Source: Candidatus Falkowbacteria bacterium (GTDB taxonomy: Bacteria; Patescibacteriota; Patescibacteriia; UBA11705; JABHMO01). From it: 64,000 nucleotides of DNA. The first letter of the stretch is position 1. Every line of letters starts with the position of its first letter. The stretch is from assembly GCA_018693855.1 (NCBI GenBank), contig JABHMO010000043.1, positions 72,154 through 136,153 of the forward strand. Reading direction: 5' to 3'. Below, piece after piece: positions 13,800 to 57,780 of this stretch. The translations under genes and the position numbers were made by a program. The notes under the pieces are model-generated. The model was not told the DNA's origin. It made no database searches and saw only the letters and a program-made list of their open reading frames with translations.

Positions 13800-13886
13800 G
13801 TTGATACACGTAAATATAAATTGGTTAAACGACTTAGCAGACCTCTTATTGGTCTTCTATAGCCCTCTTTAGCCTTCTTAATAAGT

Positions 13887-14222: not shown

Positions 14223-14876
14223 TTATGGCAGTTTATCAATCATATTTGTAAATTCTGAATTAAGGGATGACCAAGGATAATTCTGCCAACTTTCAGCAAT
14301 GCCGTGTTTAGAAGGGTTTCTATGGATGTAATTAAGTTTGTTCATTAAATCAGATTTATTCCTTGCATATCTATCATGAAAAGATTTATGCCATTTGAAT
14401 TTAGGATATTCCATCAAAGAATGCTTATTTATAAAATCATTTTTAAGTCTAGATAGTCTATTCCATCTATTCATTTGTTTTTCATATTGATTAATTAAAG
14501 AAATATCAATAGAATCTTTATTATCCCGAGAATGAGAATCTTTATTATCCTGAGAATGCGAGTCTTTATTATCCCGAGAATGCGGATTCTCGGGTACTGA
14601 AAGTTGATTATGGGAGAGGATTCTATTGATATTTTGGGAAGAATTCTTTTTTATTGATTTCATGATATTTGAAATGGATTCATCATTTGATCTAATGAGC
14701 ATATGAAAATGTTCTAAATTTATAATAAATGCAAAAAGATCAAAGCCATAATAATCCTTTGATTCTTTTATCTCATCAATTAAGCATCTGCTTAAAATAG
14801 GATTCTCAAAATATTCAATATTTCGAAACGTGTTTGTCGTCGTCAAATAATATTTCCCTTTATAAAAATTCCTCAT
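14223..14876 (-). CDS. REP-associated tyrosine transposase (RAYT) / IS200-like Y1 transposase
   Basis: It has a HuH motif (LEHFHML), and a C-terminal region typical of the IS200/Transposase_17 fold (…DRYARNKSDLMNKLNYIHRNPSKHG…). REP-like palindromes sit at its 5' end and inside the ORF. The start is placed at ATG 14874-14876; the ORF-track GTG start lies within the palindrome. Confidence 0.65.
   Translation of the reverse strand: MRNFYKGKYYLTTTNTFRNIEYFENPILSRCLIDEIKESKDYYGFDLFAFIINLEHFHMLIRSNDESISNIMKSIKKNSSQNINRILSHNQLSVPENPHSRDNKDSHSQDNKDSHSRDNKDSIDISLINQYEKQMNRWNRLSRLKNDFINKHSLMEYPKFKWHKSFHDRYARNKSDLMNKLNYIHRNPSKHGIAESWQNYPWSSLNSEFTNMIDKLP
14523..14594. repeat. Three tandem 24-bp units derived from the REP palindrome, lying inside the RAYT coding sequence
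   Basis: The units are atcccgagaatgagaatctttatt, atcctgagaatgcgagtctttatt and atcccgagaatgcggattctcggg. They encode the repeat HSRDNKDS/HSQDNKDS. Confidence 0.8.
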
Positions 14877-14893
14877 ATCTTTATTAATCAGTA

Positions 14894-14915
14894 CCCGAGA
14901 ATCCGCATTCTCGGG
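14894..14915. repeat. REP-like palindrome CCCGAGAATCCGCATTCTCGGG at the 5' end of the RAYT gene
   Basis: It is a perfect 9-bp-arm palindrome of the same family as the hairpins at 1061-1080, 4293-4316 and 14573-14594. Confidence 0.8.
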
Positions 14916-14949
14916 CACTGATTTGATTTTAATTATTATTAATTATAAC

Positions 14950-19659: not shown

Positions 19660-22600
19660 CTAGAAAAAATCCTGTGTACTTTGATCAGCAGCTGACTCTG
19701 GTCGAACATAAATATAAGAGCTGTACCACTGTCCTGTAGATTCATCAGATGATCTCATAAGACACTCACCATCGTTGCCATTTAGCCCGTCACCTAACTG
19801 GTAAACTTCTACAACATTTTGATTACACCAATTCCAATTGTCAGATACTGTAACGCGTGGTTTATATCGACACCACAGATTACCTTCTCGTAATACATGA
19901 CAATTTTCATTAACAACTTCATCGTCCTCGTCAACTGAACCACAAACAGGTAAACTCTCAGGTGAAGCACAAGTATAAGAATGAGAATAGTTAAAGTAAT
20001 CATCCGTACATGATTCAAAGGTATCACCCCAATTATCATAAGTATCAGTAGAGCAAGTGGCTGGTCTTCCAGTAAAATCAATTATACCATCACAATCAGA
20101 AGTTGAAGAGCAAGAATATCCAGGGATCATCTGACCATTATCTAGACACAGTCCAAGTTTTTCATGTTCTTGCCTTTGACATCTAGGTTTATGGTTTTTC
20201 AACTTACCAGTTGGTCCAGTTGGATCACTCTTATCTCCCCAATCAATTTTGACTTTTTTAATTGGCATTGCGTTTCTATCAGCCCATGCATAGAACTTCA
20301 AACTGACATCTGCTTGCGCACCAATTATTTCAACTGGCCCAGAACTGCTAGCACCGTCACCTGAAACAACTGTAATTGTGTTTGGAATAGCAGTATTAAT
20401 ATCATTATCATTAACAGTCTCAGCTACTCCCATTACAATCGGAGAATACACTTTATCGCCTAAACCTGCAGAAGAGTTAAAACTTTTCGTTAAATTATCC
20501 CAAGGCAAAGATGAAGTTGTATCTTCTACGTATTTCCATGCATACAAACCAACATTATCTCCAGCAGAAGTGCTATCATAGCTATGATCAAATACTGAAC
20601 TAGATTGAGCAAATAATCTTTTCAACTGCCAGTCCGAAACATTAGAGCTAGATTCCTTACTGATATCAAAACACATTGTTCCGCCGGCATAAGCAGCTTT
20701 AGAACCTAAGTTTAATCCTTGATCTACCACACCTTGACACTCTTTACGATTGGATTGAAGAGAAGATTCTCTAGAATTATCCTCACCAACCGCCAAATAA
20801 TTATACATGAAGAAACTACTAGTATCTTGAAGTGAGCTTGAATCATCAGGCAGAGCACCTAGAAAGCCACAAGCTTCAGGATATTCCAATGATTCTTCAA
20901 TAGACATTAGTGAAGCTTTTTCAGCGTCTAAATTACTTCCAATTAAATTATCCATTGAACCTCCGCTGAATGTATTACAGTTCGCCAAACCAACAGAACC
21001 TGTATCGCCACCACTTCTCACTTTATAATAATGATCTGAATAAATAGGACTAGAACTTGGAATTACCACGTACTTTGAGCAAACAGGAGCATCAGCTTCA
21101 TACAGCTCAATAGATGGTGTTCCTTGTCTTGTGATTAAATGCTTTGCCGCAATCATATTTGGTTCTTGATACTCTTTTGTATGTACTTGTCTATCAGAGT
21201 TATACTCTACTTGTATCTTTGCGTAGCAGTATTTAGTACCTAGACCACTTGGTTTCTTACAAGACATCTCCTCATCACAATCAGAATCACTATTACACAG
21301 ATTATCTGAACTTAAAGAATTTGTTGCATATCTAGTTCCTGAATCATTAATACAACTTAGATATTCACAGTCATCATCTGTACTTTCACAATTAGCATCG
21401 CCAGTATACAGTGCTCCACTAAACTTAAAATCTTCTTTTCCATCTCCATCATTATCAATATCGTCATCACACTGTTTTTTAGTTGTGTAAACACAATCCT
21501 CACAAAAGATATGATCACCTGAAGATGTATCTATACTATAAGAATGAACTCCGTTCGCTGTATAGTCTCTATTCAGGGCACTGCTTGCAAAATTCGGACC
21601 ATTATCAAAATACCATGAAAGTTTTGAATTATCAGCATTAGCATCTGTCACGCCAGTATACTCAGGAATGCATTCATGATGAGTAACAATAGTATCAGCA
21701 ATCTCTCGTTTATCACCAACACCTGGAACAAACGGACCTCCTTTATACAACTTCCATGATTTTGCATCAAAAAACGTTGTCAGACCTGGACGATATCCTT
21801 CTGGACAAACTGGTCCATTATAATCAGGACCAAAAGACCCTGTCCACGGATCTTCAATCGCAGCATCTCCATTGTTTTTAGCTCCACACTGTCTGAGGAG
21901 AGCTTTTGCAATAGTTAGTGAATCAAAAGCTTTCTGATTATAACTTGTTGGATCTGATGCTAAATTAGTTGTCCCAGCAATTAAACTATTAAAATAATCT
22001 TTATACTCTGGCCAATAATCATTACTAGGAACATTCGGCATATTATAATGAAGAGCGCCTTCATAACCATCTGAATAAGAATACATTCTATAAACATCCT
22101 CAAAAGAGGCTCCATGGAAGAACTCCCACCAAGGAGTACCATTAGTCCACTTCACATACGCAGAATTCCAATCAGATTGTTTATATTGCGTGTTTGGTTT
22201 CCAGTCACCGACCTTAGTATTCATCATATTTCCTTCGTTCTGTGTAATCGTAAATGACTGATCACCATCTTTACTATAAAAATTCCGAGGTGCAGCCAAC
22301 TCATCGTCATAATCCAGACTTAAATTGGAATTTAAACCATCATAATCACCACAACTTAAACTTCCGTCAGTTCTAGCAATGTAAGTATGACGTTTTTCCC
22401 ATCGCTCTGGTTCCACACAAAATTTAGGATCATCAGTACCTGCATATTCATCATCAATATAGAAACCAGCTTCTTCATGATTATCACGCAAATTGTTCAA
22501 ACCTTGCATGTTGTTTGTTGGATACCAGATTAAACATGGATGTTCTGATGTGTCATAAAGTACAGTTGATTCATCGTATTGCAAACAATATCCACTCAAA

Positions 22601-25600
22601 CCAGTATATTTAACTTTGTTCTTGTTTGCTTTTGCACATAAACCATTGTCTCCACAATCTTTAGTAGAGCAAGACTGATCTGTATCAATTACTGGATACT
22701 CTGAATCAGTGTCAGGAATTTTTTCAGGTGTTAAATCACAGGTACACGCAACATCTAAGTTATTCATACAGAATCCTGCATCAGGTGCTGGACTATAATC
22801 TGAATAGTTTGGATAGAACCGTTCATCAGAGCCATATCGATAACTCGTATAGAAACAACCATAATCTTTGTTATCACGTCCGGCAGGATTTTCTCGATGT
22901 GCAGAACTTAATGTAATAGTATTCACATTCTCATATCCTTCAACAGTATTTTCATCTATATATGATGGAAACGGAGATTCTTTCTGCGGATAAACTCGAC
23001 AACTCACAGCTGCTGAATCAGACAACGTTTCACTACCCGTTATAGACATTAAACATCTTCCATCAATATATTTACATTTTGCATCCAAGTCATTGTTACA
23101 CAGAGCACGACACTCGCTTCTAGTTGTATACTTATAACTAACTAATCTAAAATTCTCATCTGGGTATTCACATTTTGTATCACATGGATAATCTTCTCTT
23201 TCACCACATGAGTACGGTACATTATTTGGATTTGGACAAGAATTACCCGGTTCAACATAATTACCATCATCACATTTATTCAAATTACATTCTGTGTCAG
23301 TACTACAAATAGGATTTCCAACAGTACCACCACAGAATCGCGCTACTCTACAAATATTTGTACCCGTACAGTCATTATTGTTATAACATGCAACACCGGT
23401 GGACTCACCAGTTTCTCGACTATAACAGTACTTAGTGTTAACATCGATCGCTGTGTAATAGTTAAGTGGTGCCTTATCAACAATCGCATATCCAGAATAA
23501 TCCAAATCAAACCAACCCGTGTTTCTCGTTTTATATTTATCACCCGAAGTTAATGGTTCATTATTAGATAATAAATTTCTGGCAATTGGTGTTGTTACAA
23601 AATGTGCACATTTTCCATCAGCAGCAAGTTCTGTACATAAACCAAGCTCGTCACATTCTTCAACGTACGTATTGGCACGAGAGTCCCAACTCCAATGAGT
23701 ACTCTTACAGCCATACCAAGATGAACAAACTCTATCCTTCTTAACTTTAACAATTAAATTCGAGTCATTTTGTAATAATTTTCTAGCTGTACACTTGGCA
23801 TTTGTCTCAAGCAAATCTTCACTAATAGCCGTACTTCCCCCATCAGCACAAACAAATTGATCACCACTAACACCTGGAGCTGCATCTATCTGTTTTATTT
23901 TATCTAAACATAAATCAACCATGTCATTTCCAGCGTCCTCATAGATGGCCAGACATGCCTCCATTGCTCGACAATAAGTATATTCAGGAGAGCTACAATT
24001 TGGTTCAGTAATAATTGTATCTACATTATTATCATTATATTTCAGAGGCGACTGTGGTACATTCTCCTGTCTAACTTTGAAATATGTTTGATAAGCATTT
24101 CCAAGTTCATTACTTGACTGTGAAGTATCGCTTAACATCACACAACCAATATTTCTATCAACAGCACTATTACAACTTGTTTTATCAATATTTTCGTCGT
24201 TTAGATAATAGTAAGCCTTACCTCCATAATTTTTTAATAATGAAGCACCACTACCAACCATATTCTCTCGATCTGTTGGATCTAGGAAAGCAGTACATTT
24301 ATCAGCTTTGTTTTCACAAATTCCAACATAACCATCATAATCAGCGTCATCATTTCTAACAACATGATCCGTACCGTCATAATAATAATCTTTTGTTTCA
24401 CAAGGAATATCACCTTCATAATCATCTAAATCTGATTTTCTAATAAACCAACCTTCATAAGTATTACTTGCTCCAAGTAGAGAAACTGCTGTACCTTGAC
24501 GATATTCACAAACCCTATCATACGGATTTCTAAAATAGTAATTTGAACCATCCTTGTCAGTAAACTCTTCACATCCCTCTTCCGTTTCAGAACACAGAAT
24601 ATTTGAGTTCAATAAGTTATCAGGATTTATTACATAGAACTCTTCATCATATATACCTTGACCTTCTTTTTCTTTAACCACAGTACTACTGACTGTTGGA
24701 ATTAATAATAGATTCCCCGGATTATTTGGATCTTCAATAGAAACGCTTTGATTTGAAACAACGGTTAATTCAGGTTTCCCAACCGCAGTACAACCTTTTG
24801 ACCCAGCAGGACAACGACTATCATCATTTAAAACGAGATACAACCATTCATCAGCTCCGAAATTAATATATGACTTATCAGGATCTACCGATCCTGCCTG
24901 TTCAACTGGTGATGTATTTGCTGCAATTTCAATTGATTTTGGTTGATAGTCCTGACTGTTCTTTGTATCTATAACAGCTTCACAACCAACCTTGCTTTCA
25001 TCACAAAGTGAACTAAATCCTTTTAGATAATGAGTTGCACCATCTTTATCATTATACTCACGACATCCAACCATTGCTCGAGGTAGATCTCGAGTTGTGC
25101 TGTTTAATGTTATATCATTATCACAAGTCACAGGAATATCCCATGAATCTTTTATCAAATAATTAACATCATTCTTTTGAGCAATCTTATAATTATCTAT
25201 ATAGAAAGTGTTTTCACCAATAGACATAATCTCTACAGTTAAATTTGCTGAGATATTACCCTGAACTAAGAAATTAAATGTTTTGTACTCCCAATTTGAC
25301 TGACTAACACTAACAACACCAGAATCAAACGTTTCTCCACTAGGAGTTCCATCAGTAACAATCACTCGAATATCTGACGTTGCTGAACTTGCATCAGCTT
25401 TAATCCAGAAAGACAAAGCGTAATCGCCAAAACCACTTGCGACCAAATTTGTATATTCAGGTTTCGTACTTAATGTTTGTGAAACACCTCCAAAAACCAA
25501 GATTGGACCTTGATCTCTTGATTCAACTCTAAGAATTCTTTTCTGTTCTTCCTGTGATACATAATCAAATGCAGCACTTTTCTCTTCCCAATCAGAGAAG

Positions 25601-28600
25601 TTTGTTTCCAAAATAGTCTGTTCATCACCAGCAAAATTACCTCTATACTCTCGACATCCAGCACTATCAGAATCACAGGTTATACCTTCTCCAGGAATAG
25701 CCATGAAAATACATTCATTGTTCTGCCAAACACCTTTTCGCTGTTCACACTGAGACTGAGCTAGGACTGTAACAAACTGAGTACCTGTAAATTCAGTATA
25801 ATCTTGATATTGAAGAGTTCTTCTGTATGGATGACAGTTTTCACTACAAGAAATAACCTGAGAACTTAATCGATATGAAGCTTTTCCATCCTCATCGTAA
25901 TACTCTAGACAATCAGGGTTAGATTTACCTGCAAAAACATCAGCATTACAGCTAGCAGCGTTTGTCGCAGCGTCCAAAGTCGCGGGTTGAGTAACGTTGC
26001 TATCAGATTTCAAATAATGTGATTTTAACTGATATCCAGCATCTTCACTTGATTCCCAAGTAAAGTACATTGCACAACTACTTTCATTTTCAGGAACTTT
26101 CACGCAATGTTTCAACTGTTTGTAATACTCTTTTCCTTCCCCACCAACAGCTAGTTCGTCTAAATTAGTAAACTCTTCACAACCAACATTCTGAGCATCA
26201 CACTTCTCAGCACTTCTTGTAATTAAATATATAGGAAACTCTTCTTGTTCATAAAAAGTTTCTTCTTTTTTGAATGATTTATAACCAGCACACTCTTGCG
26301 GACAGTAATCTTGTGCTGAAGCAATACCGTAAACCTCACTTCCACCATCAGTTGGTCTATACTCATCACAACCAACTTCCTTTGCAGTACAGATCTCTGC
26401 AAAGTTTTCACAACCTCGTGGAAATGGACCTTGATCTTGGTTAGTCGCTGCTGTGCTTGCTAAAACAACTGAACTATCATACGGAGTTCCATAAATAGAA
26501 GCACTATTATAGCTAGTATCATAACAACCAATATACGAAGGCGCTTTTTGAACATAATTAATATTATTCAATGTAGAATCAGCACCATACGGTACGTATG
26601 AATGAGTTAAACCTTCCGCAGGAAAACTAATCTCCTCAACCATAATATCATCAATCTTCGCTCCTCCTGTTACTGTGAAAATCGGTTGTATCCAGATCCT
26701 ATTTTCTCGTAAAAAAGTTAAATCACTATTTTGAATATTGTTTGGAACAGTCTCAATTATTGAATAAATTCTATCCCAACTACCAGCAACAACCTCATCA
26801 CTACTATAAGAGCTAAAGTCTGTTGTTGTGTACAGAGTTGGTTTCGCAGCAGAGACGTGCGGTGAATACAGGTCAATTGCAACAGTTGAGCTATCTGATT
26901 CTTTTTTAATAAAAGCGGAAACAACAAAGTACCGTTTATTCTTCTTATAAACATTACCTATCTTCGGTCCATTTAAAACACCACTACTAGCAAAACTAAC
27001 AGCTGCAGTTCCTGACATTGCATCGTCAACCAAGAAACAGTTACTACCTCCACAATTAATACCAGCAGCTAAATTAGCATCATCCATTGCGCCTACATAT
27101 TCTTCAAAACTACTGTTTGGAGCTTGGTTTGAACCATAATCAACTTTTGTTCTAACAACTTCTGTACAACCTTCATCTGTTCGAGAACAACTTTGTGCTT
27201 CAACATTTTTATTTAATCTTATAATTGAATTACTAATATTATCATGAGAATAATCACTATTTTCATCATCTAACCAGTTCCACTGGTCTGTTACTTTTGA
27301 CATAGCAAGAGCGTACCATGAGCAACCAGCATTTGCACCATCACACATTCTATTATCAACTGTTTTATATACATAACCTTCAGTTCCACCACCTCGAATC
27401 TTCAAGCTTTTACAACTATCAAATGAAGCGAAACATTCATTTCCACCGAACTTCCAACTGTTCTTTTCTGCGGCACAGTATCCCCATGACTCACATTCTC
27501 CATTATCACTTTCCTTAATACAAGTCTTTACATCAGCACAATAAGAATTACGAGCATTTGTTCCTGGTGCAAGTAATTCTTCACCGTATCCTTCAATTTC
27601 ACATTTTGCTTTAGGGTATTTTAATATCCAATTTGGATTAATTAACCCTTCATACGGACTACCTGAAATATTAAACCCGTCTATTACTGTATTTAACGAG
27701 ACATTACCACCCGATGTTTCATTTAGAGTCGCAGCAATCTCCCAACCAATAGGTATAACTCGAGAGGTTCTAAGCTTTACTAAATTTGAATAACAAAAAC
27801 CTAACTCATAACAAGTATCAGTTGAATTTCTTGCATCATTTTTATGTATAATAGGTTTGTTACCATTGATATATTCCTGTTCAATAGCTTGAGCAACTGT
27901 TAAAGGTTCTCTTTGAGTTGCCATTCGAACAGCTTGCGCAAAGTTATGATCCATTACACAGTTGAACATGGTTGCATTTTTTGGACAACTAACAAAGTCA
28001 GATAATAGATTTATTTCCTTTGGATTATAATTTACACTAACTTTTTGTACTGTTGAATTAGCAAAAGATCTTTCGATTCTATCATCTCTTTTTTGTTGAC
28101 TTAAGTATCCAAAAGCAGCTCCCTGTGGTGGCACATACTCATCTGCTTCACTCTTAATACCAAAATCAAGTAATTTTTGAGTAGCAACTTTTAATCCCTG
28201 AGAAACAAATGTTGTTAAAAAAGCACTTAAAACTGCTGCGGGAATATCAGACATAACATGCATAGCAGGACCAAGTTCCGTTTTTTCCGCTTCCTGAATA
28301 GCTGAGACTTCATTCATGATATACCCACGCCTCAACCAGGCTGGAGTGGTAATATCTTTTCCAGAAATACTAGTTTTTGCTTTCATTCCTTGTCCTTCTC
28401 GTCGCTGTTCTTTCTCTGCAGAGAGAAGCTCGGCTTTAGTCTTATTTAATTGACCTTCAACAGTTAAAGCTATTCCGATATCAGCAGTTTCACGACTGGT
28501 TGCCACTTCCCAGCCAGACTCGAGCATCTTACCAGTCATAAAAGCAGCCAATTTATTTGGATCGTCTTTATATAAGGACTCATATGAACGATATTTTTCT

Positions 28601-29190
28601 GCTAGACTTGCACCAAGTGCTTCATAGTTACCTTTAATTTTAGTAAAAGTACAAAGAGGTTTCTCCTGCTCTTGATCATCCGGAATATCAAGTCCAAGTG
28701 TAATCTGCATTTTCAAACTAACATCAGGATCACAGATATCAAATCCAAGAGAATCCCAAACAGAGCCACGCAATGAATCTAAAAACTTACCAGTCGTATT
28801 ATCCACTATATCTTTTTGGAACTTTGCCCAAGTTTTTGAATAAAACATTGGATCACCTTTACCTTGCATGGCTTTTAGTGATTCAATAGCAGCCGTCCTA
28901 GCCAGACTTACCATTGCATTCCTCATTGTCAAAGCTGCCGTCAATTTAATCGAATTCCATAATTCAACAGTAATCGCCTCTTCAAGCTCATCAGCCAATT
29001 CATTCGCAGTATCAGTAAACCACTGATTAATATCTGTAGCTAAAGAAGTCGATTCAATCGCTTCTAACGCTGGAGCAGAGACAACTTGTCCAAACGCAAC
29101 ACCTGGTGCAACCAATTGAAAACAAACCAAAAATATAACGACTTTTGTAAATAGACGATTTAAACGATTAGGTCGATGAGAAGAATTCAT
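19660..29190 (-). CDS. Giant secreted Cys-rich protein (3176 aa), probably a cell-surface or adhesin protein
   Basis: It is a single uninterrupted ORF with host-like codon usage and an N-terminal signal peptide. It is extremely rich in Cys, Asn, Asp and Gly, with many CxxC/CxC clusters. The membrane-anchored TSP3-repeat protein gene sits immediately upstream. Confidence 0.7.
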   Translation of the reverse strand: MNSSHRPNRLNRLFTKVVIFLVCFQLVAPGVAFGQVVSAPALEAIESTSLATDINQWFTDTANELADELEEAITVELWNSIKLTAALTMRNAMVSLARTAAIESLKAMQGKGDPMFYSKTWAKFQKDIVDNTTGKFLDSLRGSVWDSLGFDICDPDVSLKMQITLGLDIPDDQEQEKPLCTFTKIKGNYEALGASLAEKYRSYESLYKDDPNKLAAFMTGKMLESGWEVATSRETADIGIALTVEGQLNKTKAELLSAEKEQRREGQGMKAKTSISGKDITTPAWLRRGYIMNEVSAIQEAEKTELGPAMHVMSDIPAAVLSAFLTTFVSQGLKVATQKLLDFGIKSEADEYVPPQGAAFGYLSQQKRDDRIERSFANSTVQKVSVNYNPKEINLLSDFVSCPKNATMFNCVMDHNFAQAVRMATQREPLTVAQAIEQEYINGNKPIIHKNDARNSTDTCYELGFCYSNLVKLRTSRVIPIGWEIAATLNETSGGNVSLNTVIDGFNISGSPYEGLINPNWILKYPKAKCEIEGYGEELLAPGTNARNSYCADVKTCIKESDNGECESWGYCAAEKNSWKFGGNECFASFDSCKSLKIRGGGTEGYVYKTVDNRMCDGANAGCSWYALAMSKVTDQWNWLDDENSDYSHDNISNSIIRLNKNVEAQSCSRTDEGCTEVVRTKVDYGSNQAPNSSFEEYVGAMDDANLAAGINCGGSNCFLVDDAMSGTAAVSFASSGVLNGPKIGNVYKKNKRYFVVSAFIKKESDSSTVAIDLYSPHVSAAKPTLYTTTDFSSYSSDEVVAGSWDRIYSIIETVPNNIQNSDLTFLRENRIWIQPIFTVTGGAKIDDIMVEEISFPAEGLTHSYVPYGADSTLNNINYVQKAPSYIGCYDTSYNSASIYGTPYDSSVVLASTAATNQDQGPFPRGCENFAEICTAKEVGCDEYRPTDGGSEVYGIASAQDYCPQECAGYKSFKKEETFYEQEEFPIYLITRSAEKCDAQNVGCEEFTNLDELAVGGEGKEYYKQLKHCVKVPENESSCAMYFTWESSEDAGYQLKSHYLKSDSNVTQPATLDAATNAASCNADVFAGKSNPDCLEYYDEDGKASYRLSSQVISCSENCHPYRRTLQYQDYTEFTGTQFVTVLAQSQCEQRKGVWQNNECIFMAIPGEGITCDSDSAGCREYRGNFAGDEQTILETNFSDWEEKSAAFDYVSQEEQKRILRVESRDQGPILVFGGVSQTLSTKPEYTNLVASGFGDYALSFWIKADASSATSDIRVIVTDGTPSGETFDSGVVSVSQSNWEYKTFNFLVQGNISANLTVEIMSIGENTFYIDNYKIAQKNDVNYLIKDSWDIPVTCDNDITLNSTTRDLPRAMVGCREYNDKDGATHYLKGFSSLCDESKVGCEAVIDTKNSQDYQPKSIEIAANTSPVEQAGSVDPDKSYINFGADEWLYLVLNDDSRCPAGSKGCTAVGKPELTVVSNQSVSIEDPNNPGNLLLIPTVSSTVVKEKEGQGIYDEEFYVINPDNLLNSNILCSETEEGCEEFTDKDGSNYYFRNPYDRVCEYRQGTAVSLLGASNTYEGWFIRKSDLDDYEGDIPCETKDYYYDGTDHVVRNDDADYDGYVGICENKADKCTAFLDPTDRENMVGSGASLLKNYGGKAYYYLNDENIDKTSCNSAVDRNIGCVMLSDTSQSSNELGNAYQTYFKVRQENVPQSPLKYNDNNVDTIITEPNCSSPEYTYCRAMEACLAIYEDAGNDMVDLCLDKIKQIDAAPGVSGDQFVCADGGSTAISEDLLETNAKCTARKLLQNDSNLIVKVKKDRVCSSWYGCKSTHWSWDSRANTYVEECDELGLCTELAADGKCAHFVTTPIARNLLSNNEPLTSGDKYKTRNTGWFDLDYSGYAIVDKAPLNYYTAIDVNTKYCYSRETGESTGVACYNNNDCTGTNICRVARFCGGTVGNPICSTDTECNLNKCDDGNYVEPGNSCPNPNNVPYSCGEREDYPCDTKCEYPDENFRLVSYKYTTRSECRALCNNDLDAKCKYIDGRCLMSITGSETLSDSAAVSCRVYPQKESPFPSYIDENTVEGYENVNTITLSSAHRENPAGRDNKDYGCFYTSYRYGSDERFYPNYSDYSPAPDAGFCMNNLDVACTCDLTPEKIPDTDSEYPVIDTDQSCSTKDCGDNGLCAKANKNKVKYTGLSGYCLQYDESTVLYDTSEHPCLIWYPTNNMQGLNNLRDNHEEAGFYIDDEYAGTDDPKFCVEPERWEKRHTYIARTDGSLSCGDYDGLNSNLSLDYDDELAAPRNFYSKDGDQSFTITQNEGNMMNTKVGDWKPNTQYKQSDWNSAYVKWTNGTPWWEFFHGASFEDVYRMYSYSDGYEGALHYNMPNVPSNDYWPEYKDYFNSLIAGTTNLASDPTSYNQKAFDSLTIAKALLRQCGAKNNGDAAIEDPWTGSFGPDYNGPVCPEGYRPGLTTFFDAKSWKLYKGGPFVPGVGDKREIADTIVTHHECIPEYTGVTDANADNSKLSWYFDNGPNFASSALNRDYTANGVHSYSIDTSSGDHIFCEDCVYTTKKQCDDDIDNDGDGKEDFKFSGALYTGDANCESTDDDCEYLSCINDSGTRYATNSLSSDNLCNSDSDCDEEMSCKKPSGLGTKYCYAKIQVEYNSDRQVHTKEYQEPNMIAAKHLITRQGTPSIELYEADAPVCSKYVVIPSSSPIYSDHYYKVRSGGDTGSVGLANCNTFSGGSMDNLIGSNLDAEKASLMSIEESLEYPEACGFLGALPDDSSSLQDTSSFFMYNYLAVGEDNSRESSLQSNRKECQGVVDQGLNLGSKAAYAGGTMCFDISKESSSNVSDWQLKRLFAQSSSVFDHSYDSTSAGDNVGLYAWKYVEDTTSSLPWDNLTKSFNSSAGLGDKVYSPIVMGVAETVNDNDINTAIPNTITVVSGDGASSSGPVEIIGAQADVSLKFYAWADRNAMPIKKVKIDWGDKSDPTGPTGKLKNHKPRCQRQEHEKLGLCLDNGQMIPGYSCSSTSDCDGIIDFTGRPATCSTDTYDNWGDTFESCTDDYFNYSHSYTCASPESLPVCGSVDEDDEVVNENCHVLREGNLWCRYKPRVTVSDNWNWCNQNVVEVYQLGDGLNGNDGECLMRSSDESTGQWYSSYIYVRPESAADQSTQDFF

Positions 29191-29216: not shown

Positions 29217-30044
29217 TTATTGTTGTGCTTGAGCTTCAGCAAGAGCTCTTGAAAAGATAGATTTAAGGTCTTCATCAGAAACTTGATCCAAATCTGAATC
29301 ACTATAACCGTTCTGTCGTAACATTTCCCTTATTTGGTCTGCAGAATAGTTATATGGATCAACAACATCCGTACCAGTAGACAAATCCATATCCTGCATA
29401 GCATTAAACGCATCTGGATTTTCTTTTATTGCGGCTGTATAGAAAGCGACTAACTGTTCATCAGTAAATTGGTCAACTTGAGCTTGAGTCGCAACGCCAG
29501 ATTCTAGAATTAGAGCTCGGAGTGTATCAACAGGAGGAACAACTATTTCTTCATCGGGCACGTCCAGCAAACTGTCAGTTCCGCCCTCTCCACCATTTCC
29601 TGATCCAGAAAAACAGGTATATCCATCTGGACAGTTTGGATCTGTCCCTGCATAGATCTCTTCATAATCAGAAAGTCCATCACTATCACTATCAGCAAGA
29701 AACACGCTTGTTTCATAAACAAACTCTTCATCGTAATCATTTATTCCATCCGCGTCTGTATCTTTTTGCCGAAGAGCAATTGAATCTTCATTATCGTTTA
29801 ACAGTTCCTTAACATCAACTGCGTTATCACCTTTATTTTGAGCGACTTCAGCCAAAGGAACATTTAACAAAGCACTCATTCGAGCAAAACCAATCAAAAC
29901 TATGACAAATAAAATTATCACAAATCCAATAATAACTGTTTTGCGTCTTTTGTTATTTTTTTCTAATAGAGCCTGATCTTCTTCACTTACAACCACTTCG
30001 CCTTCGATCGGCTCTTGGTTTTCACCAGAGAATTCTTCATTCAT
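29217..30044 (-). CDS. Single-pass membrane protein with thrombospondin type-3-like Ca-binding repeats
   Basis: It has one TM helix and acidic DxDxDGxxDxxE repeats (DTDADGINDYDE, DSDSDGLSDYEE). It is paralogous to the genes at 44239-45435 and 45535-46119. Confidence 0.6.
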   Translation of the reverse strand: MNEEFSGENQEPIEGEVVVSEEDQALLEKNNKRRKTVIIGFVIILFVIVLIGFARMSALLNVPLAEVAQNKGDNAVDVKELLNDNEDSIALRQKDTDADGINDYDEEFVYETSVFLADSDSDGLSDYEEIYAGTDPNCPDGYTCFSGSGNGGEGGTDSLLDVPDEEIVVPPVDTLRALILESGVATQAQVDQFTDEQLVAFYTAAIKENPDAFNAMQDMDLSTGTDVVDPYNYSADQIREMLRQNGYSDSDLDQVSDEDLKSIFSRALAEAQAQQ

Positions 30045-30135
30045 AAGCTAAATAAAACAAAAAAATAATTTTGTTCTTTAAACAAATGATTTCACTAAAT
30101 TTATTATACCATAAATTCACTCTTCTAACTAAAAA

Positions 30136-30150
30136 AATAGTGGATAATAT
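30136..30150. promoter_or_regulatory. Candidate operator palindrome GTGGATAaTATCCAC upstream of the TSP3/giant-protein operon
   Basis: It has perfect 7-bp arms around a single central nucleotide, about 90 bp upstream of the 30044 start. Confidence 0.3.
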
Positions 30151-30249
30151 CCACATTCTTTTCCACTAAAATTAGTTAAATATTTTTCGTTTGATTAATC
30201 GCGAAAAATTGTACTTAAAACAACGTTAGTGATAAAAGTTTACTTAACG

Positions 30250-30620
30250 AAATTGGATTCCTGCCTACGCAGGAATGACGATTTGAAGGTACGTTATTCC
30301 AATACACCAAGGGGTCTGGGGGGCGACTGTCTAAGCGTCATTAATCAACGCACAAAAAGTCGCTAAATAGAACATAGTGAGTTTTAGCTCCCCAGCAGTT
30401 TTCTTGCCTTGCCGAAGCTTATGTAATAGCGAAGGCGGGTGGTTACTTTTGGCGCCAAAAGCAACTCGACCGAGAGGGCGAAAAATCAACGCAGCAAACA
30501 ATATTCAATTTTCGACATATTTTCACCGAATCCACAAATTTTACCTGGTGTATTATAAAGATCCCTCCAGCCCATCCTACGCTAATAGCTTCGGAGGGCA
30601 GGCAAGGTCGGGATGACAAA
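30250..30620. ncRNA. Candidate structured RNA of unknown class in a 600-bp gene-free, GC-elevated spacer
   Basis: It has long-range complementarity (CCTTGCCGAAGCTTAT…ATAGCG at 30407-30437 with CGCTAATAGCTTCGGAGGGCAGGCAAGG at 30572-30603), an internal palindrome CTTTTGGCGCCAAAAG, and GGG/CCC-rich stems. No convincing ORF is present. The strand is undetermined. Confidence 0.3.
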
Positions 30621-30640
30621 AGATTAAGAGAACAAACACA

Positions 30641-31459
30641 CTATCCAAAAAGCTTCACCAACTTCTTCCAATCATCCAACTCCAACTCCTGAGCCCTCAC
30701 ATTCTCATCCAAACCTAACTCTTCAAAAAAACTATGCAATAATTTTTTATCAAAACTTTTACCTAAATTCCCAATCAACTTCTTTCGTTTGCTTGAAAAT
30801 CCAGTTTTAATTAACTTGAAAAACAGATCCTGCTCTTTCCGAGATAAGTCAGATTTCAACAACTCGAGCCGAATCACAACACTCTTAACTTTTGGGGCCG
30901 GAAAAAAACAGCTTTCTGAAACAGTGAACAAAATTTTCGGTTTGGAAAAAAGCTGTACACTCAAAGCTAAAATATTCATGTCCGGCGACTTCGCCAACAT
31001 CCTCTCCCCCACTTCCTTCTGAATCATCAAAACCATTTCACTTGGTTTGTTTTTGGCTTCTAAAAATTTTCTAATGAAATTACTGGTAATCGAGTATGGC
31101 AAATTAGCAACAATCTTATAATTCTTCCCTAAATTTTTCGTAATTTCCTTTTCCTCAACTTTCAGAACATCCTTATGAAGCAACTTCAAATTAGAGGATT
31201 CACTATACTCATCCTCTAAAAATTGATGTAATTTTCGATCAAATTCAACTGCCAACACCTTTTTTGACTTATCAATCAACTTTGCTGTTAACGATCCAAA
31301 TCCAGGCCCCACCTCCAAAACTCGATCAGTTTTTTTTATATTCGATTCACGTACAATTTTATTCAAAATATTATCATCAATCAAAAAATTCTGCCCACGC
31401 AACTTCGTAGGATGAATCCCCAACTTTTCCAAGTTTTCCATCAAAACAGATATTTTCAT
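30641..31459 (-). CDS. rsmA: 16S rRNA (adenine1518/1519-N6)-dimethyltransferase
   Basis: It carries RGQNFLIDDNIL, and has the SAM motif VLEVGPGFGSLT. Confidence 0.9.
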   Translation of the reverse strand: MKISVLMENLEKLGIHPTKLRGQNFLIDDNILNKIVRESNIKKTDRVLEVGPGFGSLTAKLIDKSKKVLAVEFDRKLHQFLEDEYSESSNLKLLHKDVLKVEEKEITKNLGKNYKIVANLPYSITSNFIRKFLEAKNKPSEMVLMIQKEVGERMLAKSPDMNILALSVQLFSKPKILFTVSESCFFPAPKVKSVVIRLELLKSDLSRKEQDLFFKLIKTGFSSKRKKLIGNLGKSFDKKLLHSFFEELGLDENVRAQELELDDWKKLVKLFG

Positions 31460-33119: not shown

Positions 33120-33284
33120 AGAATCGCAAGGAGACTATACGGGGCCAGCCCGCAATGTCTACGCATAGCGTTGCTGGCGGGCTAAACGAGGCCATTAAGG
33201 AGGCTAACCCCAAATTATGTCACTCCGGACACGCCTGCCCTCCGTAGTTTTCTAAACGAAGGTGGGATCCGGAGTCTGGCCAAG
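33120..33284. repeat. Composite GC-rich leader/intergenic element (AGAATCGCAAGG-GGCTATA motif, a 52-bp conserved core, and an ACTCCGGA…TCCGGAGT hairpin)
   Basis: The 52-bp core GGGGCCAGCCCGCAATGTCTACGCATAGCGTTGCTGGCGGGCTAAACGAGGC is near-identical at 45446-45500. The AGAATCGCAAGG(R)G(R)CTATA part is shared with the hisS leader at 59231-59272. The hairpin is shared with the element at 57826-57856. Confidence 0.75.
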
Positions 33285-33298
33285 TAAAAAAGCCGAAC

Positions 33299-35920: not shown

Positions 35921-35928
35921 ATAAAGGT

Positions 35929-36080
35929 GATGCTAATCTGCGAATGACATGCGAATGCCGCGAACGCTTCGCTATGCTAATTTACGAATTACACGAATAA
36001 TAATTATTATTATTCGTATCATTCGCAAGGACATTCGCATCATTCGCATGTCATTCGCAGATTCGCATCGCGTTCCGCGA
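35929..36080. repeat. Copy 2 of the roughly 160-bp palindromic intergenic element
   Basis: It reads ATGCTAATCTGCGAATGACATGCGAATGCCGCGAACGCTTCGCTATGCTAATTTACGAATTACACGAATA…, then TATTCGTATCATTCGCA… It starts 9 bp upstream of the htrA start codon. Confidence 0.8.
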
Positions 36081-36134
36081 TTAACTAAATAGAACCAAAA
36101 CTTACGTTCTGGTCAAATTATATATATTTTAAAA

Positions 36135-36407
36135 TCATTTAAGTAAATTTTCTAAGAAAGAAGCTGATGGACCTTGATTGAGTTCATTCAAAGTTCCCAT
36201 TATCTCTTTGTACTGATCCATTGTACTACTGAGGTAAGGGACAGCGAAGATAAGACCAATTGCAACTGGGATTACGATGACAAGTACTTTAATCACGCCA
36301 AAAACTCGTTGCCACATAATATATCGTTTCACCTTTTGCAGATCTTCATGAATTTCCTTACTGAATTCCAAATTTTTTTTAAGAAGTTTTAATAGTTCCT
36401 CCTGCAT
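36135..36407 (-). CDS. Small hypothetical membrane protein (90 aa)
   Basis: It has one TM helix and is flanked on both sides by copies of the palindromic element. It is a low-confidence gene. Confidence 0.3.
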   Translation of the reverse strand: MQEELLKLLKKNLEFSKEIHEDLQKVKRYIMWQRVFGVIKVLVIVIPVAIGLIFAVPYLSSTMDQYKEIMGTLNELNQGPSASFLENLLK

Positions 36408-36416
36408 ATAGACGCG

Positions 36417-36535
36417 ATACTAATCCACGAATGCATGCGAATGATACGAATGCTTCGCTATACTAATTTACGAACTACGCGAATAATTGAGTTCGTGGTG
36501 CGATTATTGGTATCGCGATTAGTATCATTAGTATT
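36417..36535. repeat. Copy 3 (more diverged) of the roughly 160-bp palindromic intergenic element
   Basis: It reads ATACTAATCCACGAATGCATGCGAATGATACGAATGCTTCGCTATACTAATTTACGAACTACGCGAATA… and fills the spacer between nrdG and the small ORF. Confidence 0.7.
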
Positions 36536-36551
36536 ATTTGTATATTAGTAT

Positions 36552-45435: not shown

Positions 45436-45522
45436 AGGAAAAGGGGCCAGCCCGCAATGTCTACGCATAGCGTTGCTGGCGGGGCTAAACGAGGCTATAC
45501 GAGGCTATAAAAGGCTTTCGGA
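45436..45522. repeat. Second copy of the 52-bp GC-rich core plus GAGGCTATA direct repeats, immediately upstream of the start codon
   Basis: The sequence GGGGCCAGCCCGCAATGTCTACGCATAGCGTTGCTGGCGGGGCTAAACGAGGCTATACGAGGCTATAAAAGGC is near-identical to 33140-33192. Confidence 0.75.
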
Positions 45523-46127: not shown

Positions 46128-46292
46128 ATGCTAATCTGCTAATGATATGCGAATGCCGCGAACGCTTCGCTATGCTAATTTACGAATTACACAAATAGTT
46201 AACTATTCGTAGTATTCGTGTAATTCGCAAATTAGCATCTCAGCAATTTTCGTATCATTCGCATGCTTTTCGTGGATTAGCATCGGTTTACT
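46128..46292. repeat. Copy 4 of the roughly 160-bp palindromic intergenic element
   Basis: It is near-identical to copies 1 and 2. It spans from 9 bp upstream of the TSP3 gene start to the TAA stop of the 2830-aa gene; the stop lies inside the element terminus …CATCGGTTTA, as also seen in copy 1 with nfu. Confidence 0.8.
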
Positions 46293-57766: not shown

Positions 57767-57780
57767 GTTATAACTCCTTG

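What the first reader, a model, noticed from the sequence alone, without database searches (positions are those of the whole stretch)
30200..30640. GC-elevated 0.6-kb gene-free spacer with long-range complementarity, a candidate structured RNA
The gap between rsmA and the TSP3 gene is far longer than other spacers and richer in G+C. The segments 30407-30437 and 30572-30603 can pair over about 25 bp, enclosing about 135 nt that contain a perfect palindrome, CTTTTGGCGCCAAAAG, and GGG/CCC stems. Only a spurious 79-aa ORF overlaps. I could not find RNase P, tmRNA or SRP signature sequences by eye, so the class is unknown.
Basis: seen in the sequence. Interest (0 to 1): 0.5.

Follow-up and report, generated by a model that had tools for sequence, protein, structure and literature searches.

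The report
Hairpin-repeat cluster in a gene spacer
The GC-rich gap after rsmA in this candidate-phyla-radiation bacterium is best read as a patchwork of hairpin-forming DNA repeats, of the type that small single-strand nucleases recognise in other bacteria, built around a roughly 300-base conserved non-coding unit of unknown role; it matches no recognisable structured RNA gene.

Summary
The RNA-gene reading finds little support. Rfam gives nothing, even at E<=10. The long-range helix is absent from the homologous spacers I could read. RNAalifold finds no covariation.

The helix exists because its two arms (30403-30439 and 30570-30609) are inverted copies of one palindromic module. The second copy sits inside a GTC-A..T-C hairpin. 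That type recurs at 30253-30280, 33219-33278 and 57828-57856. It matches the NTS/SRM repeats that Ssn GIY-YIG single-strand nucleases cleave (24 of 28 to the Neisseria NTS consensus; identical 26-mer in a Rickettsia plasmid).

In one relative, a 109-aa single-domain GIY-YIG gene flanked by similar hairpins lies one gene downstream. The orthologous spacer ranges from 133 to 596 nt, or more than 1 kb, with the modules shuffled.

Between the two hairpins lies a unit of about 300 nt (30252-30559, minus strand). It is conserved in relatives and tandemly duplicated in one. It could still be a new small RNA (about 0.2).

Verdict: a REP/BIME-like or NTS-like repeat cluster in a Patescibacteria genome. 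Modest interest.

The parts
30641..31459 (-). rsmA (16S rRNA dimethyltransferase), the upstream gene; no canonical terminator follows it in this genome
   Evidence: Pfam RrnaAD 192 bits. Relatives L178 and L183 have a REP-type hairpin plus T7 directly after the stop codon.
30560..30617 (-). Composite hairpin 'X2'. The outer part is an NTS/SRM-like clamp (TGTC-ATCCC ... GGGAT-C). Nested in its loop is an X-type module (GCCTGCCCTCCGAAGC...CGTAGGATGGGC).
   Evidence: Sequence. Aligns with the 33219-33278 element and with the other clamp hairpins. Folds as DNA at -10.6 kcal/mol, z -2.3. The 12-mer GCCTGCCCTCCG is shared with 33233-33244.
30552..30557 (-). TATAAT hexamer just downstream of X2; a possible -10 box for a minus-strand transcript of the unit. 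It has no convincing -35 box and is not conserved in relatives.
   Evidence: Sequence. The promoter scan did not report it.
30252..30559 (-). Conserved non-coding unit of about 300 nt: a degenerate 5' part, hairpin H1, hairpin H2 with a variable tip, the H3 domain, a tail and a terminal clamp hairpin
   Evidence: nhmmer with a profile built from these same four copies recovers them and no others: L178 5044-5378, L187 2-239 and L187 274-556. blastn block of 98 nt at 76.5%, E 7e-10, and 37-nt blocks at 92%. Alignment A4.
30442..30465 (-). H1: a 10-bp hairpin containing the perfect 16-nt palindrome at 30446-30461
   Evidence: (I10). Kept in L187 copy 2. In L178 and L187 copy 1 it is remodelled to UUUUUU-ACGC-AAAAAA, that is one G-C to U-A exchange plus one added pair.
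30403..30439 (-). H2 / X1: a hairpin whose stem (CCYGCCU / AGGCARG) is conserved and whose tip varies between copies. This is the proximal arm of the long-range helix.
   Evidence: The tip CGCTATTACATAAGCTTC is identical in L187 copy 1, which carries an extra 31-nt hairpin inserted after it. L187 copy 2 and L178 have unrelated tips.
30316..30395 (-). H3 domain: outer helix CUGGGG / CCCCAG enclosing an inner 6-bp helix and the conserved GCGUUGAUU
   Evidence: The outer helix is invariant. The inner helix differs in sequence (GCGACU/AGUCGC here, AUUCGC/GCGAAU in relatives) but lies at an analogous place. A second GCGTTGATT copy sits at 30484-30492 (D3).
30311..30321 (-). CCCCAGACCCC, conserved in every copy, including the fragment in the closest relative L186
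30253..30280 (-). NTS/SRM-like hairpin CGTCATTCCTGCGTAGGCAGGAATCCAA (8-bp stem, GUAG loop) that closes the unit
   Evidence: 24 of 28 positions match the published NTS consensus; two of the four differences are one compensatory C-G to U-A exchange (sequence against PMC11893778). A 26-nt stretch is 100% identical in Rickettsia plasmid CP084575, which has 5 copies in 3 kb. DNA fold -7.7 kcal/mol, z -5.1. This hairpin accounts for the weak Rfam FtrB hit.
30196..30228 (-). AT-rich block conserved with L186 (88%); contains a promoter-like TTATCA-16-TACAAT on the minus strand
30131..30154 (-). Hairpin GTGGATATTATCCAC followed by a T-run: terminator-like, and at the same time two inverted DnaA-box-like 9-mers. 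Conserved in all relatives that have the TSP3 gene.
   Evidence: Terminator scan. Conserved in L186, L187, L180 and L190. The DnaA-box resemblance rests on my own knowledge of the consensus TTATCCACA.
30103..30111 (-). Extended -10 promoter TGGTATAAT of the TSP3 and giant-protein operon
   Evidence: Sequence. The surrounding 132 nt are 94% identical in L186. The same motif occurs in L180, L184, L187 and L190.
29217..30044 (-). 275-aa TSP3-repeat protein gene, followed by a 3176-aa giant protein gene (19660-29190)

Best explanation
The spacer is a cluster of GC-rich, hairpin-forming repeat modules in an AT-rich Patescibacteria (Falkowbacteria-like) genome. The closest analogies are a REP/BIME mosaic and a Neisseria NTS cluster.

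Two hairpins of the NTS/SRM type mark its ends: GTC, then a palindrome that starts with A and ends with T, then C. One of them carries a second palindromic module (X) nested in its loop. An inverted, diverged copy of that X module forms hairpin H2 of the unit lying between them. That is why 30403-30439 and 30570-30609 can pair over about 30 bp.

Shown: the hairpins are multi-copy and appear in other spacers. They are inserted or absent at different places in orthologous spacers. They nest inside one another. In one relative, similar hairpins flank a small single-domain GIY-YIG nuclease gene.

Inferred: the modules act as single-stranded hairpins. As ssDNA they would be recognised or cleaved by an Ssn-like GIY-YIG nuclease, which would also account for their spread. 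By analogy with Neisseria this could modulate recombination of incoming DNA next to the variable giant surface-protein genes. As RNA they would lie in the rsmA read-through transcript and serve as its 3' stabiliser or terminator; X2 occupies the place where relatives have a REP-type terminator.

The unit of about 300 nt between them is an older, vertically inherited part of the same mosaic. Its function is unknown.
For: 1. Repeat family. GTCAYYCCNR occurs 7 times in the window against 1.75 expected, with 0 of 100 shuffles reaching 7. Four of these are hairpins with the same GTC...C frame: 30253-30280 (minus), 30560-30617 (minus), 33219-33278 (plus) and 57828-57856 (plus).

2. Identity with a known repeat. 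The hairpin matches NTS (CGTCATTCCCGCGMAVGCGGGAATCYRG) at 24 of 28 positions. It has the GTC upstream and the C directly after the palindrome, which the paper found critical for cleavage and binding respectively (PMC11893778). A 26-mer is identical in a Rickettsia plasmid, which has 5 copies in 3 kb. The published SRM pattern matches hairpins in two other CPR loci, L018 and L019.

3. Nuclease link. In L190 (rsmA 53% identical) the order is rsmA, a 133-nt spacer, a 283-aa gene, a hairpin, a 109-aa single-domain GIY-YIG gene (Pfam 66.6 bits), a hairpin, then the giant gene. Its flanking arms, TGTCACACTGAGCCTGCCGAAGTGCGACAT, align with X2, with 33219 and with the H2 5' arm (GTCAY..CCTGCC..GAAG).

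4. Presence/absence and mosaicism. The orthologous spacer is 133 nt (L190) or 161 nt (L184) with no hairpins. It is 255 nt in L191, with a GTCATTCC..GGGATGAC hairpin, 542 nt in L180, 580 nt in L178, 596 nt in the window, and more than 1 kb in L187. L178 and L187 hold the same modules in different order and copy number. L187 copy 1 has a 31-nt hairpin inserted into the H2 tip. The closest relative, L186 (TSP3 protein 82% identical, promoter 94%), has different clamp hairpins at different places. By eye only, the H2 tip of L187 copy 2 resembles a stretch of the L180 spacer; the blastn did not report it.

5. The long-range helix is specific to this lineage; its distal arm has no counterpart in L178 or L187.

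6. Assemblies of the relatives break inside the array, as expected for repeats.

7. The genome runs other palindromic-repeat systems too. A RAYT gene lies at 14223-14918 (NCBIfam REP_Tyr_transpos, 85.5 bits against a cut-off of 80) with its own REP hairpins.
Against: - No GIY-YIG gene is present in the 64-kb window (tblastn and motif scan). The rest of the genome could not be searched.
- None of the window's four hairpins passes the published SRM search pattern strictly.
- The L190 nuclease's nearest solved relatives are UPF0213 proteins. Membership of the Ssn clade (cd10448) could not be tested.
- Every known copy of the 300-nt unit lies in the same orthologous spacer, and none is dispersed elsewhere in the window. 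That pattern fits a locus-specific functional element better than a mobile repeat.
- Core blocks of the unit are more conserved (76-92%) than a control spacer (44%) or rsmA third codon positions (55%).
- No function of the hairpins, whether termination, cleavage or recombination, was tested.
Confidence: 0.55

Rival explanations
1. The unit of about 300 nt (30252-30559), possibly extended to the terminator at 30131-30154, is a gene for a lineage-specific structured small RNA. It is duplicated in tandem in some relatives. The NTS-like hairpins and variable tips are tolerated insertions or terminators.
For: - Conserved blocks in relatives whose flanking proteins are only 60-70% identical: 98 nt at 76.5%, E 7e-10, and 37-nt blocks at 92%.
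- A control spacer is unalignable (44%, against a shuffle level of 45%).
- The stems of H1, H2 and H3 are kept while the H2 tip is replaced by unrelated sequence, as in the variable stem-loops of real RNAs.
- H1 shows a G-C to U-A exchange plus an added pair. The inner H3 helix differs in sequence but is present in both lineages.
- All copies sit in the same orthologous spacer.
- GC is enriched in an AT-rich genome, and the fold z-score is -2.9 (plus strand) or -1.8 (minus strand).
Against: - No Rfam match at any threshold.
- The RNAalifold covariation term is positive on both strands. The alignment contains effectively only two lineages.
- Wobble evidence is mixed: three positions favour the plus strand and one the minus strand.
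- No promoter or terminator is conserved for either strand.
- The window copy lacks the 5' GGGG..UUUCGAA..CCCC hairpin of the relatives.
- In the closest relative, L186, the region just 5' of CCCCAGACCCC is replaced by a clamp hairpin.
- In overall identity the unit (55%) is no better than rsmA third codon positions.
Confidence: 0.22
2. A MITE-like non-autonomous transposon about 208 bp long (30403-30609), bounded by terminal inverted repeats of about 40 bp.
For: The imperfect inverted repeats are real: duplex -40 kcal/mol, 0 of 100 shuffles.
Against: - The interior (H1 and the degenerate 5' part) and one arm (H2) are shared with relatives that lack the other arm. The segment was therefore not inserted as one piece.
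- No flanking target-site duplication is visible (TTTT on one side, GTCG on the other).
- There is no second copy in the window.
Confidence: 0.05
3. An invertible (phase-variable) promoter segment flanked by the inverted repeats, controlling the downstream surface-protein operon.
For: Inverted repeats flank 128 bp that include a TATAAT hexamer. The segment lies upstream of giant surface-protein genes.
Against: - All 13 independent assemblies of this species have the same orientation.
- No recombinase gene was seen among the 17 nearby ORFs that were scanned.
- A terminator-like hairpin and a strong conserved promoter lie between the segment and the operon.
- The inverted repeat is not conserved in relatives.
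Confidence: 0.03
4. A decayed gene remnant or a small protein gene.
For: ORFs of 56-79 aa overlap the region. The distance between the two clamp hairpins (about 280 nt) is close to the size of the GIY-YIG gene in L190.
Against: - No Pfam hits.
- tblastn with the L190 GIY-YIG protein finds nothing in the window, L178 or L187.
- Searching an alignment of ORFs translated from the relatives' units found nothing among 5.8 billion proteins.
- The 79-aa ORF has only two marginal hits, to long repetitive proteins.
- Frame-breaking indels separate the relatives.
Confidence: 0.03

Closest known systems
NTS / SRM hairpin repeats and Ssn single-domain GIY-YIG ssDNA nucleases (Neisseria dRS3/NTS; also Wolbachia, Rickettsia and others; PMC11893778)
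   Same: - Short hairpin with an oriented frame: GTC upstream, a palindrome running from A to T, and C directly after.
- 24 of 28 positions match the NTS consensus. The 26-mer is identical in a Rickettsia plasmid.
- Multi-copy, intergenic and clustered near surface-protein genes.
- In a relative, a 109-aa single-domain GIY-YIG gene is flanked by hairpins on both sides, as in NTS-ssnA-NTS.
- The host is a symbiont-type lineage, as are the SRM-rich taxa listed in the paper.
   Different: - The window hairpins fail the published SRM search pattern.
- Some have loops expanded by 30-45 nt of nested palindromic sequence. The SRM pattern allows loops of 0-5 nt only.
- No ssn gene lies within the 64-kb window.
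- The L190 nuclease's closest solved relatives are UPF0213 proteins, and its cd10448 membership is untested.
- Patescibacteria are not mentioned in the main text of the paper.
- Cleavage is untested.
REP / BIME / REPIN elements with RAYT transposases (enterobacteria, Pseudomonas)
   Same: - Intergenic clusters of imperfect palindromes arranged as mosaics whose module order and copy number vary between loci and strains.
- Inverted doublets that form long hairpins (REPIN-like), as X1 and X2 do.
- Positioned at the 3' ends of genes.
- A RAYT gene is present in this window (14223-14918).
   Different: - The REP hairpin that flanks the RAYT here (CCCGAGAATCCGCATTCTCGGG) belongs to a different family from the hairpins in the focal spacer.
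- There is no GTAG-type head.
- The 300-nt unit is far larger than a REP.
Rickettsia palindromic elements and yeast mitochondrial GC clusters (from my own knowledge)
   Same: GC-rich palindromic modules that spread in AT-rich, reduced genomes and insert into one another or into other features.
   Different: No sequence relation was tested. Those elements also insert into coding genes, which was not seen here.
Rfam FtrB (Francisella sRNA B, RF02748)
   Same: Shares the GUCAUUCCNGCGUAGGCNGGAAUC hairpin (27.6 bits, E 0.035).
   Different: The score is far below the gathering threshold (66 bits). Outside the hairpin the match is weak: 82 nt aligned to a 115-position model, with most of one stem-loop (26 of 28 positions) missing. 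The hit most likely reflects the same widespread hairpin repeat embedded in FtrB.

Membership tests
NTS/SRM (Ssn-related motif) hairpin repeats | Inverted repeat of 20-50 nt that forms a hairpin | tested here: met
   30253-30280: 8-bp stem, DNA fold -7.7 kcal/mol, z -5.1. 57824-57860: -12.2 kcal/mol, z -6.9. 33215-33282 and 30556-30621: z -2.5 and -2.3.
NTS/SRM (Ssn-related motif) hairpin repeats | Oriented flanks: GTC directly 5' of the palindrome and C directly 3' of it (critical for cleavage and binding in PMC11893778) | tested here: met
   All four window hairpins, and those of L186, L187, L178 and L019, read GTC-A...T-C.
NTS/SRM (Ssn-related motif) hairpin repeats | Match to the published degenerate SRM pattern HGTCWYN(0-2)YYVSBRHN(0-5)WNVSBRGN(0-2)RNCYNB | tested here: not met
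   None of the four window hairpins matches strictly. The one match in the window, at 2315-2343, was not examined; shuffles give 0.1 matches on average. L018 and L019 (other CPR genomes) each match once. The 30253-30280 hairpin matches the NTS consensus at 24 of 28 positions and a Rickettsia repeat at 26 of 26.
NTS/SRM (Ssn-related motif) hairpin repeats | Multi-copy in the genome, above chance | tested here: inconclusive
   Seven GTCAYYCCNR sites against 1.75 expected, with 0 of 100 shuffles reaching 7. Only 4 hairpins were found, and only 64 kb of the genome is available.
NTS/SRM (Ssn-related motif) hairpin repeats | Genome encodes an Ssn (cd10448 single-domain GIY-YIG) gene, usually flanked by the motif | tested here: inconclusive
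   None in the window. Relative L190 has a 109-aa single-domain GIY-YIG gene flanked by related hairpins. Its nearest solved structures are UPF0213 proteins. cd10448 membership is not testable with these tools.
NTS/SRM (Ssn-related motif) hairpin repeats | Site-specific cleavage of the ssDNA form by the cognate nuclease | not testable with these tools
   Needs biochemistry.
REP/BIME with RAYT | A RAYT gene in the genome whose flanking REPs belong to the same family as the repeats in question | tested here: not met
   A RAYT is present (NF047646, 85.5 bits). Its REP (CCCGAGAATCCGCATTCTCGGG, at 14888-14926) differs from the focal hairpins and is absent from 30045-30640.
REP/BIME with RAYT | Mosaic clusters with variable module order and copy number | tested here: met
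   L178 and L187 share the modules that I labelled P, Q, Q', core and clamp, in different order and number.
Any Rfam family (RNase P, tmRNA, SRP, 6S, riboswitches, introns and the rest) | Covariance-model score at or above the gathering threshold | tested here: not met
   0 hits in the window at gathering score. 0 credible hits at E<=10 in the spacer. 0 hits in L187 at E<=10 and none in the spacers of L178, L186, L187 or L180 at E<=1. ARAGORN finds no tRNA or tmRNA.
MITE | Terminal inverted repeats plus a target-site duplication, inserted as one unit, multi-copy | tested here: not met
   Terminal-repeat-like arms are present. There is no target-site duplication and no second copy. The interior is shared with relatives that lack one arm.
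Invertible promoter (inverton) | Both orientations present in populations; a nearby site-specific recombinase | tested here: not met
   All 13 assemblies are collinear. No recombinase was found among the 17 neighbouring ORFs scanned. Read-level data were not available.

The most novel reading that the evidence does not exclude
The unit of about 300 nt (H1, H2 with a swappable tip, the H3 domain with CCCCAGACCCC and GCGUUGAUU, and in relatives a 5' hairpin with a T-loop-like UUCGAA loop) is a previously undescribed structured RNA. It would be confined to a marine Falkowbacteria-related lineage, tandemly amplified in some members, always encoded between rsmA and the giant surface-protein operon, and bracketed by NTS-like hairpins that serve as its processing or termination sites.
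Probability: 0.2. Interest if true: 0.55.

Novelty: new variant of a known kind. Interest (0 to 1): 0.35.

Why it matters
If this reading is right, NTS/SRM-type hairpin repeats and a flanked single-domain GIY-YIG gene extend into the Candidate Phyla Radiation. So far they have been described mainly in Pseudomonadati symbionts and pathogens.

CPR organisms have tiny genomes and very little non-coding DNA, and they are thought to depend on DNA uptake. A system that marks ssDNA next to hypervariable giant surface-protein genes could shape how these episymbionts recombine and vary their surface, as proposed for Neisseria.

The hairpin-within-hairpin growth seen here is a variant that the published search pattern misses. 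Such repeats may therefore be under-counted.

There is also a practical point. These GC-rich clusters mimic structured RNAs in AT-rich genomes and break metagenome assemblies, so recognising them avoids false ncRNA calls. The 300-nt unit remains a small open question.

Tried and rejected
- Rfam at gathering score and at permissive E-values, on the window and on four relatives: nothing.
- ARAGORN: nothing.
- A tmRNA-like or tRNA-like reading of the plus strand (5' GGGGU..., 3' T-loop-like GAGUUCGAAACUC...ACCCCAC in relatives). Rejected on inspection of the sequences: there is no D-arm, the acceptor and T stems are mismatched, no tag reading frame is conserved between the window and L187, the window copy lacks the T-loop hairpin, and the unit occurs in tandem copies.
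- A tRNA gene split by a group I intron, prompted by PMC13011429. Rejected for the same reasons, and there is no Intron_gpI hit.
- TIGR-Tas arrays (PMC12045711). From the abstract seen and my own recollection of roughly 36-nt units and a Tas protein; the paper was not opened. No short periodicity was seen in the spacer's repeats. No tas gene was looked for.
- The search for related loci with rsmA in genome contigs and in metagenome contigs.
- Four exact-pattern scans of viral contigs: 0 hits.
- blastn against phages: nothing. Against plasmids: only the Rickettsia hairpin.
- Searching an alignment of ORFs translated from the relatives' units, to catch spurious ORF calls in other genomes: nothing.
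- Same-species contigs (13 sequences) are about 100% identical and so useless for covariation. Their only 3 SNPs all fall in H1-H2.
- An unrestricted duplexfold shuffle test was meaningless. I replaced it with a windowed test.
- A regex scan for GIY-YIG ORFs across all loci found none. The L190 gene came from the precomputed Pfam column.
Full report
**Context.** The window is AT-rich (GC 0.363). Nearly all genes from 9.7 to 60.7 kb lie on the minus strand. NCBI names the identical 275-aa protein 'Candidatus Falkowbacteria bacterium'. The best named rsmA relatives are Falkowbacteria, Buchananbacteria and other Patescibacteria, at about 47-50%.

The finding lies in the 596-nt gap at 30045-30640. 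On one side is rsmA (30641-31459, minus). On the other is a 275-aa TSP3-repeat gene (29217-30044, minus), followed by a 3176-aa protein gene.

**Observation check.** GC rises to 0.45-0.49 between 30300 and 30600. The 16-nt perfect palindrome is at 30446-30461. The long-range complementarity is real. The strongest duplex between any two 45-nt segments of the spacer is 30396-30440 with 30567-30611, at -40.4 kcal/mol. Dinucleotide shuffles give -26.6 +/- 2.8, and none of 100 reaches the observed value. The duplex is far stronger than the two local hairpins.

The ORFs in the gap have no Pfam match. The 79-aa ORF has no real relatives among 1.84 billion representative proteins.

Two details are wrong. 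The gap is not far longer than the others: 35921-36551 is 631 nt between ORFs of at least 120 aa, and several gaps exceed 400 nt. It is also not the only GC-rich gap: 33120-33298 has GC 0.54.

**Known RNA families.** Rfam finds nothing in the window at gathering thresholds. At E<=10 the only notable match in the spacer is 27.6 bits to FtrB, and that match rests on the 8-bp hairpin at 30257-30280. ARAGORN finds no tRNA or tmRNA. The homologous regions of relatives are equally blank.

**Relatives.** Thirteen assemblies of the same species carry an essentially identical spacer, with 3 SNPs, all in 30416-30456. They give no covariation and show no inversion.

More distant relatives were reached through protein homologues of rsmA and of the TSP3 protein and their contigs. 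The gene order rsmA, spacer, gene of about 280 aa, giant gene is widely kept. The spacer is not:
- 133 nt in L190 and 161 nt in L184, both AT-rich and holding only a hairpin and a TGGTATAAT-type promoter.
- 255 nt in L191, with a GTCATTCC..GGGATGAC hairpin.
- 542 nt in L180 and 580 nt in L178.
- More than 1 kb in L187.

**A conserved unit.** On the rsmA strand, 30559 down to 30252 is homologous to L178 5044-5378 and to two tandem copies in L187, at 2-239 and 274-556. The profile behind one search was built from these same four copies, so it shows only that no further copy exists in the held loci. Independent support comes from blastn: one 98-nt block at 76.5% (E 7e-10) and 37-nt blocks at 92%.

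The unit contains:
- H1, the palindrome hairpin.
- H2, with stem CCYGCCU/AGGCARG.
- An H3 domain, CUGGGG...CCCCAG, enclosing the conserved GCGUUGAUU.
- CCCCAGACCCC, then a tail.
- A terminal GTCATTCC..GGAATCC hairpin.

Overall identity is only 55%, about the same as rsmA third codon positions.

The H2 tip differs completely between copies. In L187 copy 1 a 31-nt hairpin is inserted into the very tip sequence that the window has. By eye, the tip of L187 copy 2 resembles a stretch of the L180 spacer, but the blastn did not report that similarity.

The window copy lacks the 5' GGGG..UUUCGAA..CCCC hairpin of the relatives. In the closest relative, L186, the region next to CCCCAGACCCC holds a different hairpin. 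Several relatives' contigs end inside the array, as repeats tend to cause.

**Structure tests.** RNAalifold on the four copies gives positive covariation terms on both strands, meaning none. The alignment holds effectively two lineages, and the window is partly misaligned in H3.

A hand count shows the helices are kept. In the window, however, three transitions are rescued as G-U only on the plus strand and one only on the minus strand. There is no consistent coding strand, which is what DNA-level palindromes or drift would give.

**What the arms are.** The distal arm lies in 30560-30617 (minus). That segment reads TGTC-ATCCC...GGGAT-C with an inner module GCCTGCCCTCCGAAGC..CGTAGGATGGGC. The element at 33219-33278 has the same two-layer build and shares the 12-mer GCCTGCCCTCCG. 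The proximal arm (H2) is an inverted, diverged copy of the inner module. Two copies of a palindromic module are necessarily complementary to each other, and that accounts for the helix.

**The outer clamp is a known repeat type.** Simple forms occur at 30253-30280 (minus) and 57828-57856 (plus), and in L186, L187, L178, L018 and L019.

A full-text search for the sequence led to the Ssn paper (PMC11893778). According to that paper:
- NTS = CGTCATTCCCGCGMAVGCGGGAATCYRG.
- NTS and the broader SRM hairpins are cut, as ssDNA only, by small single-domain GIY-YIG nucleases (Ssn).
- The ssn genes are typically flanked by the motif.
- The motifs cluster near surface and virulence genes and are abundant in symbionts.

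The window hairpin CGTCATTCCTGCGTAGGCAGGAATCCAA matches NTS at 24 of 28 positions, and two of the differences form one compensatory pair. It keeps the GTC and the 3' C that the paper found critical. It is identical over 26 nt to a repeat in a Rickettsia plasmid that has five copies in 3 kb. It does not pass the paper's degenerate search pattern; hairpins in L018 and L019 do.

**Nuclease link.** In L190 a 109-aa single-domain GIY-YIG gene (Pfam 66.6 bits) sits between the 283-aa gene and the giant gene. Hairpins flank it on both sides. Their arms, TGTCACACTGAGCCTGCCGAAGTGCGACAT, align with X2, with 33219 and with the H2 5' arm.

Its nearest solved relatives are UPF0213 proteins. Whether it belongs to the Ssn clade could not be tested. 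No such gene is present in the 64-kb window.

**Other repeat systems in the window.** A RAYT gene lies at 14223-14918 (NCBIfam 85.5 bits against a cut-off of 80) with its own REP hairpin. The same hairpin type forms the rsmA terminator in L178 and L183. In the window, X2 occupies that position.

**Reading.** The spacer is best described as a mosaic of hairpin repeats, NTS/SRM-like plus nested modules, built around an older conserved unit.

Shown: repetition, similarity to NTS, nesting, presence/absence in orthologous spacers, and the flanked GIY-YIG gene in a relative.

Inferred: action as ssDNA targets of an Ssn-like nuclease, a role in recombination near the surface-protein genes, and a role as rsmA 3' hairpins.

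The main rival is that the unit is a new small RNA. It stays open at about 0.2. The reasons are that all copies sit in one orthologous spacer and that core blocks are better conserved than a control spacer (44%, at shuffle level).

Noticed in passing
window 14223-14918 (minus), with 14520-14600 and 14888-14926: A REP-associated tyrosine transposase gene (NCBIfam NF047646, 85.5 bits against a cut-off of 80; Pfam Y1_Tnp). The hairpin CAGTACCCGAGAATCCGCATTCTCGGGCACTG sits at its 5' end. Three tandem partial copies (TATTATCCCGAGAATG...) lie inside the reading frame. Hairpins of the same type occur at 4290-4325 and form the rsmA terminator in relatives L178 and L183.
   Followed up: partly
window 33141-33206 and 45443-45507; L180 5040-5077: A GC-rich hairpin element (…CCCGCCNGCAACGCTATGCGTAGACATTGCGGGC…) is present twice in the window at 92.5% identity. 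It is also present at 95-97% in the rsmA spacer of a relative whose rsmA is only 54% identical. This suggests a mobile or strongly constrained module.
   Followed up: partly
window 33219-33278 (plus) and 57828-57856 (plus): Two further NTS/SRM-like hairpins (GTCACTCCGG...CCGGAGTC). The first carries a nested GCCTGCCCTCCG module. Both lie between minus-strand genes.
   Followed up: partly
L190 4778-5334: In a relative, a 109-aa single-domain GIY-YIG gene is inserted between the TSP3-like gene and the giant gene. It is flanked on both sides by long hairpins that end in TGTCACACTGAGCYTGYCGAAGTGCGACAT. The protein's C-terminus (GASAGSA) is encoded by the right-hand hairpin.
   Followed up: partly
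L187 1-1054: More than 1 kb of gene-free DNA upstream of the TSP3 homologue. It holds two tandem copies of the 300-nt unit plus extra modules, including three GGAC-loop-GTCC mini-hairpins at about 545-650. The contig starts inside a unit.
   Followed up: partly
window 30131-30154 and the equivalent sites in L180, L186, L187 and L190: The conserved hairpin upstream of the TSP3 promoter (GTGGATATTATCCAC plus a T-run) consists of two inverted 9-mers, each matching the DnaA-box consensus TTATCCACA at 8 of 9 positions. It could be a terminator, an operator, or both. GC skew shows no origin here.
   Followed up: no
window 13850-13887 and 57767-57815 (also 33186-33210 and 45485-45510): A CT-rich repeated motif, TAGCCCTCT-N-TAGCC(C/T)TCT(A/T)AATAA, lies directly upstream of the start codons of rpmA (L27) and rpsU (S21). 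Related TAGCCTC repeats lie upstream of two other genes. This may be a shared leader or an anti-Shine-Dalgarno-like element.
   Followed up: no
window 10930-11040 and 46171-46240: A family of long AT-rich palindromes (ATGCTAATTTGCGAATTAC...GTAATTCGCAAATTAGCAT), with RNA fold energies of -25 to -30 kcal/mol, in two distant spacers.
   Followed up: no
window 19660-29190 and 46288-54780: Two giant ORFs, of 3176 and 2830 aa. The first has no Pfam domain at all. The second was not scanned. Relatives keep a giant gene of 2973-3645 aa at the same place as the first.
   Followed up: no
window 30416-30456 (alignment A1, columns 185, 202 and 225): The only three SNPs among 13 same-species assemblies of the 596-nt spacer all fall within H1-H2. 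Two are in a single low-coverage contig, so they may be sequencing errors at hairpins.
   Followed up: no
L189 (Rickettsia plasmid CP084575) 636-1079 and 1501-1528: Five copies of a hairpin identical to the window's, GTCATTCCTGCGTAGGCAGGAATC. Four of them are arranged as two inverted doublets about 30 nt apart. The fifth overlaps the 3' end of an annotated IS256 transposase CDS.
   Followed up: partly
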